In this document: positions 11,662 to 50,208 of the stretch, in pieces | Layout: the number at the start of each line of letters is the position of its first letter | Position numbering within the stretch: position 1 is the stretch's first letter | NCBI GenBank assembly: GCA_009840165.1 | Contig: VXOG01000034.1 | Location: 2,455 to 66,454 of the forward strand | Length of the DNA: 64,000 nt | From: Chloroflexota bacterium | GTDB taxonomy: Bacteria > Chloroflexota > Dehalococcoidia > Lucifugimonadales > UBA3495 | Reading direction: 5' to 3' | Translations under genes and position numbers: made by a program | The notes under the pieces: model-generated | Told to the model about the DNA's origin: nothing | Database searches by the model: none | The model's input: only the letters and a program-made list of their open reading frames with translations

Positions 11662-12414
11662 ATGAGGCTGGAAGGCAAAGTCGCAATCATCACCGGCGGC
11701 GCGCGCGGACAGGGCGCCACCGAAGCCAGGATGTTTGCCCAGGAAGGCGCGAAGGTGGTCATCGGCGACGTGCGGGACGAACTCGGTATGCAGGTGGAAG
11801 CCGAGATTCGCGAACTGGGCGGCGAGGCGGTTTACCTGCACCTGGACGTGACCAACGCCGATGACTGACAAAACGCCGTGGATACCGCCGAGCAGCGATT
11901 TGGCAAGGTGGACGTGCTGGTGAACAACGCCGCCATCGTGCTGCGGAAGGACATCGAGGAAACCACCTCCGAAGACTGGGACAACATCATGGACGTCAAC
12001 GCCAAGGGCGTATTCCTGGGCACCAGGGCCGTGATACCCGCCATGCGTCGGGCCGGCGGTGGCAGCATCATCAATATCTCGTCGATCAGCGGTTTGGTGT
12101 CCATCGGCCCGCCGGCATACATCGCCACCAAGGGCGCGGTCCGCCTGTTCACCAAGTCCACTGCTATCCAGTACGCTGCGGAAAACATCCGCGCCAACTC
12201 CATTCACCCGGGCGCCGTGGACACTGATATGCGCCGCGGCGGGCTGGAAAATCAAACGGCCGAAGAGATCCAGGAGCGACTGAGTCAGATTCCCTTGGGC
12301 CGCGTGGGCACCACCGAGGATATATCGTACGGGGCACTGCTCCTGGCGTCCGAAGAGTCCTCGTTCATGACGGGCAGCGAACTGGTCATCGACGGCGGCT
12401 ATACCGCGAAGTGA
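11662..12414 (+). pseudogene. Short-chain dehydrogenase/reductase (SDR) interrupted by a single in-frame TGA (11866-11868)
   Basis: TGGARGQG cofactor motif, NNAAI, S...Y..TK catalytic residues. Track ORFs 11662-11868 and 11878-12414 share one frame: ...LDVTNADD[TGA]QNAVDTAEQRFGKVDVLVNNAAI. Confidence 0.8.
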
Positions 12415-46500: not shown

Positions 46501-46914
46501 CTAGCCAGCTTGCTGTGTTTGGTGGCGGCGCAATTCTGACAACAGGAAGGGTATATCGTCAGTGGCGGATTCCCAAACGATTCCAGGATCCACGTCCCAA
46601 GGGCGATGAACCAAGAAAGTCCGCAAGCCTGACAATGCTCTCCAGTAAATGCCAATCGTGCGAGTACGGGCTTCATCACCAAGTCCTTTGGCGGTGTCGG
46701 CGATCAAACCCATAACGTGATAAATTGCCCAGCGTGTTCTGAGGTCGCCGTCAGCGTATTCGGTGGAATACTGCTGGCATAGCCAGCCGACAGTCTCGCA
46801 CCAGAACTCCACCAGCCGAATCCTGTCATCGGGTTTCGGACCTCGCTCATCCTCCGGCGTAAATAACATCGCGTCCATCCAGCCGTTCCCGTGCCCCATC
46901 CGCCCCGTCCTCAA
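46501..46914 (-). CDS. HepT-like (DUF86, HEPN) toxin
   Basis: ...LSGLRTFLVHRPWDVDPGIVWE... carries the Rx4H HEPN motif in the usual DUF86 context. Start is uncertain because the 5' 68 nt overlap the upstream gene. Confidence 0.6.
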   Translation of the reverse strand: MRTGRMGHGNGWMDAMLFTPEDERGPKPDDRIRLVEFWCETVGWLCQQYSTEYADGDLRTRWAIYHVMGLIADTAKGLGDEARTRTIGIYWRALSGLRTFLVHRPWDVDPGIVWESATDDIPFLLSELRRHQTQQAG

Positions 46915-48673: not shown

Positions 48674-48814
48674 GAGAATTCCTCCTGATACTTTCAACTG
48701 AAATCCAACGGGATGATACCACGCTGTTTGTGGGTTATAATCTGCGCAATTCGCGCCGCCGGAGCCTTTGCCGCGTCAAAATAGCCTCCGGCAGCGTCAC
48801 ATAGGAGATGGTTA

Positions 48815-49282
48815 ATGCCAGGCCAAATTGGCGACGTTGCCCCAGATTTCACCCTGCCATCGCCGCATCACGGCGATGTTTCGTTGAACACCTACCGCGG
48901 GAGCCACACCGTAGTGTTGTCGTTCCACGTCCTGGATTTCACCGGTGGTTGAACGGATCAGGCGACTTCGTTCCGCCGTTTCAACGGACGGTTCGAAGAG
49001 TTGAATGCCCAGGTGCTGGGCATCAGTTGCGACCATGTTGCCGCGCATCGCGCCTGGACGACTTCCATGGGCGGGTTGCCGTACCCAGAGTTGTCGGACT
49101 GGCACCCTAAGGGTCAGGTGACAACCGCGTATGACCTCTGGAACGACGAGCGGGGCGCAGGAACCCGCGCCGTGATCATCGTGGACCCGGAGGGGGTGAT
49201 TCGCTACCGGGAAACCTACGAACCGGGCACACTTCCCGACCCGGAGACGATTCTTGCTGCGGTGGAAAACATCGGCACGTAA
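48815..49282 (+). CDS. Peroxiredoxin (PrxQ/BCP-like) with an in-frame TGA at the peroxidatic Cys position: candidate selenoprotein, otherwise a pseudogene
   Basis: AGGAGA RBS. MPGQIGDVAPDFTLP...VVLSFHVLDFTGG[TGA 48950-48952]TDQATSFRR...AQVLGISCD... The track shows only the distal part (49001-49282), which is in the same frame. Confidence 0.7.
48966..48998 (+). promoter_or_regulatory. SECIS-like hairpin 13 nt downstream of the in-frame TGA
   Basis: cttcg-tt-ccg-ccg-tttcaa-cgg-a-cgg-tt-cgaag: 5+3+3 bp stem with a UU/UU internal loop, a bulged A and a 6-nt apical loop. Confidence 0.45.
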
Positions 49283-49292
49283 GCAACTAGAA

Positions 49293-49314
49293 GGGGCGAC
49301 CTAAAGGTCGCCCC
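49293..49314 (+). terminator. Hairpin after the peroxiredoxin gene
   Basis: ggggcgacc-taaa-ggtcgcccc, between convergent genes. Confidence 0.6.
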
Positions 49315-49353: not shown

Positions 49354-50208
49354 TTATTCGCCGATTCCCTCGATGCGATATTGCACGGCTCCGCGGGGAG
49401 TGGCGATTGTCAACTCTTCGCCGACGCTGCGGCCCATGAGAGCCTGGCCAATGGGCGAGACCGTCGATATTTTGCCTGCCGAAACATCAGCCTCGCGGAC
49501 ATCCACCAGCGTGAAAGCCCGCTGCTGCTGAGTATCCAGGTCATGGAGCGTGACGCGAGAACCGATGCTGACTTTCTCAGTGTCCGCGTTGGCAGCGTCA
49601 ACGATCTCCACACGGGCCAGGTCATTTTCAAGCTGTCGGATACGCCGTTCCACCAGTTGCTGCTGTTCGCGTGCGGCGTCCAGAGGAGCGTTTTCCCGCA
49701 CGTCGCCGTCGCTGCGGGCCAAGCGGATGGTCTCTCGGATTTGAGGAACCTCAGCCCTGAGCCTGTGCAGTTCTTCCTGCAATTCGTCGTGGCGTTCCTG
49801 GCTGAGCCTGGCGGTGGGAGTGCTGCCCCCGGTGGCCTGGTCGTTGTTCTGGAAGCGGCGCCGATTGCGGCGAGGGGCGGTAGCGTAGCGGGCGAGGCTG
49901 ATCTGGGTCCAACCATTGCGGTTGGCGAAAGTCAGGAATTTTTTGACCGGATCGAGGCGGGAAGCCGGGTTTTCCACATTTTCGGTGGTCCAGCGGGCGT
50001 ATTCTCCGACTTCAATAGCGTGCAGAGTTGAAATCGTTTTGTCCTTGCCAATCCTGGCTTGGAAGCGCAGCAATTCCTGCTGGCCTTGCATGGTTTGGCG
50101 TGCTTCCTTAAGGTGAGCCACAAAGATGTCAATGGCTTGAGATATCGAGAGGTGCGGTTCGTTGGTCAACTTGTATCCCTCCAGTCCGGTCGCAATCTCA
50201 CGCCGCAT
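49354..50208 (-). CDS. GreA/GreB-family transcript-cleavage-factor domain with a roughly 130-aa N-terminal extension
   Basis: The C-terminal roughly 150 aa (...ARSDGDVRENAPLDAAREQQQLVERRIRQLE...IGSRVTL...ISTVSPIGQALMGRSVGEE...) is GreA-like. The N-terminal part is unrelated. Confidence 0.75.
   Translation of the reverse strand: MRREIATGLEGYKLTNEPHLSISQAIDIFVAHLKEARQTMQGQQELLRFQARIGKDKTISTLHAIEVGEYARWTTENVENPASRLDPVKKFLTFANRNGWTQISLARYATAPRRNRRRFQNNDQATGGSTPTARLSQERHDELQEELHRLRAEVPQIRETIRLARSDGDVRENAPLDAAREQQQLVERRIRQLENDLARVEIVDAANADTEKVSIGSRVTLHDLDTQQQRAFTLVDVREADVSAGKISTVSPIGQALMGRSVGEELTIATPRGAVQYRIEGIGE

What the first reader, a model, noticed from the sequence alone, without database searches (positions are those of the whole stretch)
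48815..49282. Peroxiredoxin with TGA at the peroxidatic cysteine position plus a downstream hairpin: candidate selenoprotein missed by ORF calling
Starting from ATG 48815 (AGGAGA RBS), the frame reads ...VVLSFHVLDFTGG[TGA]TDQATSFRR...AQVLGISCD... The same frame continues into track ORF 49001-49282. In PrxQ/BCP-type peroxiredoxins the equivalent block is DFT(P/G)GCT.EA..F, so the TGA (48950-48952) falls exactly on the catalytic Cys. Thirteen nt downstream lies a 33-nt bulged hairpin (48966-48998), the geometry expected of a bacterial SECIS element. Sec-containing Prx-like proteins have been reported in bacterial selenoproteome surveys, so the family is not new. The gene would nonetheless be annotated as truncated or absent.
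Basis: partly seen in the sequence, partly recalled or inferred. Interest (0 to 1): 0.62.

Follow-up and report, generated by a model that had tools for sequence, protein, structure and literature searches.

The report
Selenocysteine peroxiredoxin gene split by callers
This is one intact 155-codon antioxidant-enzyme gene (an AhpE-like peroxiredoxin) of a sponge-associated Dehalococcoidia bacterium whose internal TGA almost certainly encodes selenocysteine at the catalytic site; such selenoproteins are already known, so the main gain is a corrected annotation.

Summary
ATG 48815 opens a 155-codon AhpC/TSA peroxiredoxin. Its only in-frame stop, TGA 48950-52 (codon 46), aligns with the peroxidatic Cys45 of M. 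tuberculosis AhpE. A 33-nt hairpin starts 13 nt downstream.

Evidence that the TGA is a selenocysteine codon:
- All 80 closest orthologues, each from a different species (Dehalococcoidia/SAR202, Entotheonella; 70-97% identity), carry TGA at that codon, never TGG or TGC.
- More distant orthologues carry TGC or TGT.
- The 45 codons upstream evolve as coding sequence.
- The hairpin shows compensatory changes at synonymous sites and decays in four of the five Cys forms checked.
- TGA is otherwise a normal stop in this window.
- A second in-frame TGA in the window (an SDR gene) is TGG in all close relatives, a useful contrast.
- Strain variants in other sponge metagenomes and metatranscriptomes keep the TGA.

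The motif T-G-G-U puts it in the catalogued selenoprotein family "Prx, TxxU". The fold is AhpE-like, not PrxQ/BCP and not PrxU.

Minor oddities: Val replaces the near-universal active-site Pro, Cys72 is near-invariant, and a second, fully conserved GUN-loop hairpin lies 57 nt downstream.

Verdict: real, ordinary, mis-annotated.

The parts
48713..48741 (+). Promoter-like site (ATGATA, 17 nt, TATAAT; 10 of 12), about 74 nt upstream of the start codon
   Evidence: Consensus scan. It is a pattern match only. RNA contigs of runs X3 and X6 cover this point (from 48600 and 48685), but no transcript start is shown.
48803..48808 (+). Ribosome-binding site AGGAGA, 6 nt before the ATG
   Evidence: Sequence. 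All 81 orthologous genes start with ATG at the same codon, preceded by GGAG-type motifs.
48815..49282 (+). Complete 155-codon AhpE-like peroxiredoxin gene (stop TAA 49280-49282) with one UGA-encoded selenocysteine
   Evidence: Pfam PF00578 E 4.6e-34. AhpE structures E 1e-25. Model pLDDT 94.3, TM 0.93 to 1XXU.
48929..48931 (+). Codon 39, GTC (Val), where peroxiredoxins have the Pro of PxxxTxxC (Pro38 of AhpE)
   Evidence: Alignment to AhpE. V39 is invariant in 28 of 28 family members.
48941..48943 (+). Codon 43, ACC (catalytic Thr of the TxxU motif)
   Evidence: T43 is invariant. It aligns with the Thr of FTGIC in AhpE.
48950..48952 (+). TGA, codon 46: predicted selenocysteine at the peroxidatic position
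   Evidence: TGA in 80 of 80 orthologous loci. TGC or TGT in the Cys forms L081 and L083-L086. Aligns with Cys45 of AhpE. Unchanged in strain variants from other sponge DNA and RNA runs.
48966..48998 (+). Hairpin 1, the probable SECIS element: outer stem 48966-70/48994-98, inner stem 48973-77/48987-91, apical loop beginning about 25-27 nt after the UGA
   Evidence: Fold. Pair counts: pair 27-39 is G:C in 28 and C:G in 27 sequences; pair 18-48 is C:G in 46 and U:A in 11. Both pairs join third codon positions. Third-position entropy is 0.88 in this zone against 1.29 further downstream. Only 4-8 of 10 pairs are kept in Cys forms.
49007..49021 (+). Hairpin 2: GCCCAG-GUG-CUGGGC, a 6-bp stem with a GUN loop, 57 nt after the UGA; role uncertain
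   Evidence: All six pairs are kept in 75 of 75 distinct sequences, including G:C to A:U double changes at two pairs, while the third-position loop base varies freely. It is also largely kept in Cys forms (4-6 of 6 pairs), so it is not Sec-specific.
49028..49030 (+). Codon 72, TGC (Cys72 in ISCD, directly after strand beta-4): possible resolving cysteine
   Evidence: Near-invariant in the family. The strand ends at residue 71 in the model. AhpE has Val here. The resolving role is inferred, not tested.
49166..49168 (+). Codon 118, CGC (catalytic Arg, equivalent to Arg116 of AhpE)
   Evidence: R118 is invariant. Alignment. The PDB entry 4XIH is titled as the R116A mutant of AhpE.
49293..49314 (.). 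Perfect 9-bp G+C-rich palindrome (GGGGCGACC-TAAA-GGTCGCCCC) between the convergent peroxiredoxin and GreA-like genes; probable bidirectional terminator
   Evidence: Sequence. Unique in the window. There is no long U tract, so the simple terminator scan did not list it.

Best explanation
Window 48815-49282 is a single gene for a 155-residue AhpE-like peroxiredoxin. Codon 46 (UGA) is decoded as selenocysteine, which gives a selenol in place of the peroxidatic thiol (motif T43-G-G-U46, with Arg118). During translation the mRNA hairpin that starts 13 nt after the UGA (48966-48998) would recruit SelB.GTP.Sec-tRNA(Sec) to the ribosome, so the UGA is read through instead of terminating. The enzyme would reduce peroxides through a selenenic acid intermediate. 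That intermediate would then be resolved either by an external thiol, as in 1-Cys AhpE, or by the near-invariant Cys72.

Shown here: the gene structure, the Sec/Cys correspondence, conservation of the UGA, coding constraint on both sides, the conserved and covarying hairpin, the fold, and apparent transcription (contigs of metatranscriptome runs) across the UGA.

Inferred: SelB dependence, actual selenium insertion, the peroxidase chemistry, and the resolving step.
For: - The read-through product is a full-length AhpC/TSA domain (PF00578, 117.5 bits against a cut-off of 26). The model has pLDDT 94.3 and superposes on M. tuberculosis AhpE at TM 0.93-0.94, rmsd 1.3 A. Residue 46 lies in the first turn of helix 44-62, where the peroxidatic Cys sits.
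- U46 aligns with Cys45 of AhpE, and R118 with Arg116.
- 80 of 80 closest loci, each from a different GTDB species, have TGA at this codon and no other in-frame stop.
- Database homologues that show W at this position are TGA read by code 4.
- True Cys orthologues with TGC or TGT exist, one of them in the same gene neighbourhood next to the GreA-like gene.
- Codon-position entropy upstream of the UGA is 0.48/0.30/1.25, the same pattern as downstream.
- Hairpin 1: 82% of cells are paired. The covariation score is 0.206 against 0.100 in shuffles (0 of 500 reach it) and at most 0.099 when slid. Two pairs show compensatory flips between third codon positions. Synonymous variability is reduced in codons 47-68. 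The hairpin decays in four of five Cys forms (4, 4, 5 and 7 of 10 pairs, against 9 of 10 in the window and 8 of 10 in the closest Cys form).
- TGA ends 32 of 84 long ORFs in the window, so it is a normal stop here.
- The window's other in-frame TGA, in an SDR gene, is TGG in every close orthologue. TGA and TGG are therefore not interchangeable in this lineage.
- Contigs from an independent sponge metagenome (X2) and two metatranscriptomes (X3, X6) span the site. They carry many strain differences but none at 48950-52.
- The TxxU peroxiredoxin is a catalogued selenoprotein family (PMC1088965, PMC2398784, PMC1794560, PMC13188914). Dehalococcoidia MAGs are listed among the most selenoprotein-rich bacteria (PMC13326102).
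Against:
- None of these genes lies in the 64-kb window or within 10 kb of the orthologous gene in 80 relatives.
- Rfam has no matching model.
- The window's hairpin alone is not thermodynamically exceptional (z = -1.65).
- RNAalifold returned no consensus structure, because subgroups use shifted registers for the outer stem.
- 12 of 65 distinct sequences have no G in the apical loop of hairpin 1. A G there is a usual feature of bacterial SECIS elements.
- There is no protein-level evidence of selenium.
Confidence: 0.93

Rival explanations
1. The gene is a pseudogene, or the TGA is an assembly error: a TGC/TGT-to-TGA change killed a Cys peroxiredoxin, and only fragments or nothing are made.
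For: Standard gene calling gives two fragments. The same window does hold one apparently private nonsense change, the SDR TGA at 11866.
Against: TGA is present in 80 of 80 orthologues of different species down to 70% identity. Each has no other stop and no frameshift, and both halves are under purifying selection. Independent DNA and RNA assemblies carry the same TGA.
Confidence: 0.01
2. The UGA is read through, but not as selenocysteine. Either the lineage reads UGA as Trp or Gly, or near-cognate Trp/Cys/Arg tRNAs suppress it at this site, helped by the downstream hairpins.
For: Some pipelines translated these genes with code 4 and obtained W. The Sec machinery was not verified in this genome.
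Against: TGA terminates 32 of the 84 long ORFs in the window. None of 80 orthologues has TGG at codon 46. None of the SDR orthologues has TGA at its Trp codon, so TGA and TGG are not synonymous here. Trp or Gly at the peroxidatic position would inactivate an otherwise strongly conserved active site. The only alternative residue seen at this position is Cys, the signature of a Sec/Cys pair.
Confidence: 0.04
3. Only the annotated downstream ORF (TTG 49001-49282, 93 aa) is the real product, and the upstream 45 codons are an unrelated leader peptide or untranslated region.
For: That is how public collections store most members, as fragments of 85-105 aa.
Against: The fragment lacks strands beta-1 to beta-3, the Thr and the peroxidatic residue, and could not form the fold. 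The upstream codons show third-position variation typical of coding sequence, with an invariant ATG and a Shine-Dalgarno motif. The full-length sequence aligns end to end with AhpE.
Confidence: 0.01

Closest known systems
Bacterial selenoprotein family 'Peroxiredoxin (Prx)', PF00578/COG1225, motif T/SxxU (Sargasso Sea and GOS selenoproteomes, PMC1088965, PMC2398784; bacterial genomes, PMC1794560; review PMC13188914)
   Same: AhpC/TSA domain. UGA at the peroxidatic Cys position. T-x-x-U motif. Cys-containing homologues. A downstream stem-loop inside the coding sequence. Marine origin.
   Different: This clade is AhpE-like in sequence and fold. It has Val instead of the Pro of the PxxxTxxU motif described for Sec-peroxiredoxins (PMC13188914). 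It also carries a near-invariant Cys72.
PrxU of Eubacterium acidaminophilum, the experimentally shown Sec-peroxiredoxin (Sohling et al. 2001, cited in PMC13188914; NCBIfam NF040737)
   Same: Selenocysteine at the peroxidatic position of a peroxiredoxin.
   Different: Not an equivalog: 61 bits against a cut-off of 270, over part of a 233-residue model. Different subfamily, size and host lineage.
AhpE of Mycobacterium tuberculosis (Rv2238c; PDB 1XXU, 1XVW, 4X0X), a 1-Cys, mycoredoxin-dependent peroxiredoxin
   Same: Same length (153 against 155 aa). 34% identity. TM 0.93-0.94, rmsd 1.3 A. The Thr, the peroxidatic position and the Arg all align.
   Different: Cys45 becomes Sec46, Pro38 becomes Val39, Phe37 becomes His38, and a Val becomes Cys72. 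The reductant is unknown, and mycothiol/mycoredoxin is not expected in Chloroflexota (my own knowledge, not tested).
BCP/PrxQ peroxiredoxins
   Same: Small monomeric or dimeric AhpC/TSA-fold peroxidases with an FT.GC-type active-site block.
   Different: The BCP model scores 46 bits against a cut-off of 140, and the PrxQ model 44 against 260. The solved BCP-type chains found score 47 and 59 bits, against 93 for AhpE. There is no CxxxxC resolving Cys.

Membership tests
Peroxiredoxin (AhpC/TSA, PF00578) | Domain match above the curated threshold | tested here: met
   117.5 bits against a gathering score of 26, residues 5-131, model positions 1-123 of 124.
Peroxiredoxin (AhpC/TSA, PF00578) | Thioredoxin-type fold with the peroxidatic residue in the first turn of helix alpha-2 | tested here: met
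   Model pLDDT 94.3 with helix 44-62. TM 0.93 to AhpE 1XXU.
Peroxiredoxin (AhpC/TSA, PF00578) | Catalytic Thr three residues before the peroxidatic residue, and the conserved Arg | tested here: met
   T43 and R118 are invariant in the family and align with the Thr and Arg116 of AhpE.
Peroxiredoxin (AhpC/TSA, PF00578) | Pro of the PxxxTxxC motif | tested here: not met
   Val39 is invariant in 28 of 28 family members, in both Sec and Cys forms. It aligns with Pro38 of AhpE.
Sec-containing Prx selenoprotein family (T/SxxU) | In-frame UGA aligned with the peroxidatic Cys of Cys-containing homologues, within a T/SxxU motif | tested here: met
   T43-G-G-U46. TGC or TGT in L081 and L083-L086 at the same column. 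TGA in 80 of 80 orthologues.
Sec-containing Prx selenoprotein family (T/SxxU) | Sequence conservation on both sides of the UGA (SECIS-independent criterion) | tested here: met
   Codon-position entropies are 0.48/0.30/1.25 upstream and 0.37/0.25/1.20 downstream.
Sec-containing Prx selenoprotein family (T/SxxU) | Bacterial SECIS: a stem-loop shortly downstream of the UGA, conserved as structure | tested here: met
   Hairpin 48966-48998, with its apical loop about 25-27 nt after the UGA. Compensatory changes beat both the shuffle and the slide controls. The hairpin decays in Cys forms.
Sec-containing Prx selenoprotein family (T/SxxU) | Conserved G in the SECIS apical loop (PMC1794560 figure legend; the bSECISearch rule as I recall it) | tested here: inconclusive
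   A G lies within the first two loop bases in 53 of 65 distinct sequences, and 12 have no G in the loop. In the window it depends on which of two near-equal folds is taken.
Sec-containing Prx selenoprotein family (T/SxxU) | Sec-decoding trait in the same genome (selA, selB, selD, tRNA-Sec) | not testable with these tools
There are no tRNA genes and no Rfam hits in the window. Nothing was found within 10 kb of the gene in 80 relatives. Only unverified leads exist: notes e1-4843678 and e1-4843667.
Sec-containing Prx selenoprotein family (T/SxxU) | Selenium actually present in the protein | not testable with these tools
   Needs 75Se labelling or mass spectrometry.
PrxU (NCBIfam NF040737, equivalog) | Score at or above the curated cut-off | tested here: not met
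   61.2 bits against 270.
BCP / PrxQ (NF006960, NF053650) | Score at or above the curated cut-off | tested here: not met
   46.1 bits against 140, and 43.9 against 260.
AhpE subfamily (1-Cys peroxiredoxin) | Closest sequence and fold relative is AhpE, with the same length and architecture | tested here: met
   The top seven PDB sequence hits are all AhpE (E 1.5e-25 to 1.9e-23). The top twelve fold hits are all AhpE.
AhpE subfamily (1-Cys peroxiredoxin) | No resolving cysteine (1-Cys mechanism) | tested here: inconclusive
   A second, near-invariant Cys (C72) is present. Whether it can reach residue 46 could not be measured, because model coordinates are not exposed.

The most novel reading that the evidence does not exclude
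The Dehalococcoidia/Entotheonella AhpE-like clade may be a mechanistically distinct Sec-peroxiredoxin. It has dropped the near-universal active-site Pro (invariant Val39, preceded by His38). It may resolve the selenenic acid through an intramolecular Se-S bond with the near-invariant Cys72 rather than through an external thiol as in 1-Cys AhpE. Its recoding signal may be a two-hairpin module, in which the perfectly conserved GUN-loop hairpin 57 nt downstream (49007-49021) cooperates with the variable-loop hairpin at the canonical distance.
Probability: 0.2. Interest if true: 0.45.

Novelty: new member of a known kind. Interest (0 to 1): 0.2.

Why it matters
The practical value is annotation. 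This gene, and hundreds of its relatives in public protein collections, are stored as 85-105-aa fragments or with a spurious Trp at the catalytic position. As a result the antioxidant capacity and selenium dependence of sponge-associated and marine Dehalococcoidia are under-counted. Biologically it adds one more case to a lineage already listed among the most selenoprotein-rich bacteria (PMC13326102). The selenoprotein kind itself has been known since 2001-2005, so a specialist would not be surprised. The only points of moderate interest are the Pro-to-Val active site, the conserved Cys72 and the second conserved hairpin. All three could be tested with simple mutants.

Tried and rejected
- Genome-wide search for tRNA-Sec, SelA and SelB, and laying the genome in the Python box.
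- Looking for sel genes near the gene. Nothing was found. There was no positive control, and these genes are not expected to be linked, so this is uninformative.
- Rfam at gathering thresholds over the window gave no hit.
- RNAalifold on 81 sequences gave an empty consensus, because subgroups pair the outer stem in shifted registers. The named-structure pair count was used instead.
- Scans for further selenoprotein genes in the window and in the flanks, using coding score plus redox motifs, returned only the peroxiredoxin, the SDR nonsense codon and antisense-frame noise typical of a 61% G+C genome.
- Hairpin 2 as the Sec-specific element: rejected as the sole SECIS because Cys forms keep it. 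A helper role is not excluded.
- PrxQ/BCP and PrxU membership: rejected on curated cut-offs.
- Measuring the distance between residue 46 and Cys72 in the model was not possible, because coordinates are not exposed.

Full report
**Observation.**
- AGGAGA (48803-48808) precedes ATG 48815.
- The frame runs 155 codons to TAA 49280-49282. Its single in-frame stop is TGA 48950-48952, codon 46, in the context ...SFHVLDFTGG-TGA-TDQATSFRR....
- Table-11 ORF listing splits it into 48815-48952 and 49001-49282, in the same frame.
- Thirteen nucleotides after the TGA, a 33-nt hairpin (48966-48998) folds with a bulged A and a UUCA loop.
- Taken alone, that fold is unremarkable (z = -1.65; 13 of 200 shuffles fold as well). 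Its weight has to come from comparison.

**What the protein is.**
- Read through, the product matches Pfam AhpC-TSA over almost the whole model (E 4.6e-34).
- No NCBIfam equivalog reaches its cut-off: PrxU 61 against 270, BCP 46 against 140, PrxQ 44 against 260.
- The closest solved structures by sequence are all M. tuberculosis AhpE (E about 1e-25).
- An AlphaFold model built on 28 family members (pLDDT 94.3, pTM 0.91) superposes on AhpE 1XXU at TM 0.93-0.94 and rmsd 1.3 A. The twelve best fold hits are all AhpE.
- In the pairwise alignment, residue 46 falls on Cys45 of AhpE. That this is the peroxidatic Cys is my own knowledge of the family; the entries are titled '1-Cys peroxiredoxin'.
- T43 falls on the active-site Thr, and R118 on Arg116, whose R116A mutant is entry 4XIH.
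- The Pro of the PxxxTxxC motif is replaced by Val39, which is invariant in the family in both Sec and Cys forms.
- A second cysteine, Cys72 in ISCD directly after strand beta-4, is near-invariant. AhpE has Val there.

**Is the TGA a sense codon?** A scan of one genome per prokaryote species returned 342 relatives. The 80 closest were kept, each from a different species: Dehalococcoidia/SAR202 MAGs, many of them complete chromosomes, plus three Candidatus Entotheonella. None is the window's own genome; the best nucleotide identity is 88.7%.
- All 80 have TGA at codon 46, ATG at the same start, and no other in-frame stop.
- In the large protein collection, most relatives are fragments of 85-105 residues that begin just after the TGA. 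Several 'full-length' entries show W at position 46. One of these was checked and translates to its record only with TGA=W, so these are code-4 calling artefacts.
- Five relatives at 49-67% identity have real TGC or TGT at the same column. One of them (L081) sits in the same neighbourhood, convergent with the GreA-like gene.
- Together these make a classical Sec/Cys pair.
- The 45 codons upstream of the TGA vary mainly at third positions (entropy 0.48/0.30/1.25), just like the downstream part (0.37/0.25/1.20). The N-terminal part is therefore translated in this frame.

**Controls on the genetic code.**
- TGA closes 32 of the 84 stop-to-stop frames of 200 codons or more in the window. These include the well-delimited luciferase-like monooxygenase and SDR genes.
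- The window holds a second in-frame TGA, inside an otherwise intact SDR gene (11866-11868).
- At that codon, 69 of the 80 related loci have TGG, including every close, same-length orthologue listed. None has TGA.
- So TGA and TGG are not interchangeable in this lineage. A private nonsense change looks quite different from the peroxiredoxin's universally conserved TGA.
- Contigs from another sponge metagenome (X2) and two sponge metatranscriptomes (X3, X6) span the site. They carry many strain differences but none at 48950-48952. The RNA contigs run uninterrupted from upstream of the start codon through both hairpins.

**The recoding signal: hairpin 1.**
- Its covariation score is 0.206, against 0.100 in column shuffles (0 of 500 reach it) and at most 0.099 when partners are slid by 1-3 columns.
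- Pair 27-39 is G:C in 28 sequences and C:G in 27. Pair 18-48 is C:G in 46 and U:A in 11.
- By my mapping, both pairs join third codon positions (codons 54 and 58; 51 and 61). Protein constraint cannot explain these changes.
- Third-position entropy falls to 0.88 in codons 47-68, against 1.29 further downstream.
- In the window one pair (C27.A39) is broken, and an alternative register with a bulged A is used.
- In the five Cys forms only 8, 4, 4, 7 and 5 of the 10 pairs survive. This is the expected decay of a SECIS once the UGA is lost, although the sample is small.
- The apical loop starts about 25-27 nt after the UGA.
- A G lies in the first two loop bases in 53 of 65 distinct sequences; 12 have no G in the loop. 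The fit to the usual bacterial SECIS description is therefore good but not perfect.
- RNAalifold gave no consensus, because subgroups pair the outer stem in shifted registers.

**The recoding signal: hairpin 2.** A second hairpin, GCCCAG-GUN-CUGGGC at 49007-49021, lies 57 nt after the UGA.
- It is paired in all 450 cells of 75 distinct sequences, with G:C to A:U double changes at two pairs.
- Only pair-compatible bases occur at its synonymous sites, while the third-position loop base varies freely.
- It is also largely retained in the Cys forms, so it is not specific to Sec decoding.
- An earlier agent's idea that this is the true SelB site (note e1-1539567) is therefore not favoured, but a helper role is open.

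- The window has no tRNA gene and no Rfam hit.
- No sel gene lies within 10 kb of the orthologue in 80 relatives. That search had no positive control, and linkage is not expected anyway.
- Indirect support comes from the literature. Dehalococcoidia MAGs with 46-49 predicted selenoproteins are listed among the richest bacteria in BSepDB (PMC13326102). tRNA-Sec species are described in Chloroflexi (PMC5389517).
- Two unverified notes of this scan report a SelA-like gene and a DUF3179 selenoprotein on another piece of the same genome. I treat these as leads only.

**Comparison with what is known.**
- The motif T43-x-x-U46 in a PF00578 domain is exactly the definition of the 'Peroxiredoxin (Prx), TxxU' selenoprotein family. 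That family had 43 sequences in the Sargasso Sea and 253 in GOS, and occurs in many bacterial genomes (PMC1088965, PMC2398784, PMC1794560).
- The experimentally shown member is PrxU of Eubacterium acidaminophilum (cited in PMC13188914). This gene is not its equivalog.
- Other agents of this scan have reached the same reading for orthologues in other genomes. That is not independent evidence, but it shows how common the case is.

**Verdict.** This is a real, intact, transcribed selenoprotein gene of a known kind that is mis-split by gene callers. Confidence is 0.93 that codon 46 is selenocysteine. Novelty is a new member of a known kind, and interest is low (0.2). The residual curiosity lies in the Val-for-Pro active site, the conserved Cys72 and the two-hairpin arrangement.

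Noticed in passing
window 11662-12414 (+), TGA at 11866-11868: An otherwise complete classical SDR (adh_short_C2, E 5.9e-65 when read through) has an in-frame TGA at a conserved Trp. 69 of 80 related loci have TGG there, including every close orthologue listed, and none has TGA. This is a private TGG-to-TGA change: a nonsense mutation, a young pseudogene or an assembly error, not recoding.
   Followed up: yes
window 49354-50208 (-): A GreA/GreB-type factor of 284 aa carries an N-terminal extension of about 130 residues with no Pfam match. It lies convergent with the peroxiredoxin. The same pairing is seen next to the Cys-form orthologue L081 and the Sec-form L082.
   Followed up: partly
window 49293-49314: A perfect 9-bp G+C-rich palindrome with a TAAA loop lies between the two convergent genes. 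It is unique in the window. Other sponge samples show a 1-nt indel at 49310/49311 in its 3' arm.
   Followed up: partly
window 49003-49033 and run X1: The 31 nt around hairpin 2 recur with one mismatch on a different 3.4-kb contig of the same sponge metagenome, with unrelated flanks. This is presumably another peroxiredoxin gene. This short stretch seems to be conserved at the nucleotide level beyond the clade studied.
   Followed up: no
loci L062, L071, L073 (Candidatus Entotheonella) against the Dehalococcoidia loci: The same Sec-peroxiredoxin, at about 70% identity and with the TGA and both hairpins, occurs in Entotheonella and in SAR202-type Dehalococcoidia. Both were recovered largely from sponges, so gene transfer between co-resident symbionts is possible.
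   Followed up: no
window 46501-46914 (-): A HepT-like (HEPN) ribonuclease toxin ORF lies 2 kb upstream of the peroxiredoxin, next to a luciferase-like monooxygenase gene.
   Followed up: no
protein collection hits P0002-P0121: Most public entries for this family are 85-105-aa C-terminal fragments, or full-length calls with W at the catalytic position. Names include 'redoxin domain-containing protein' and 'Alkyl hydroperoxide reductase E'.
   Followed up: partly
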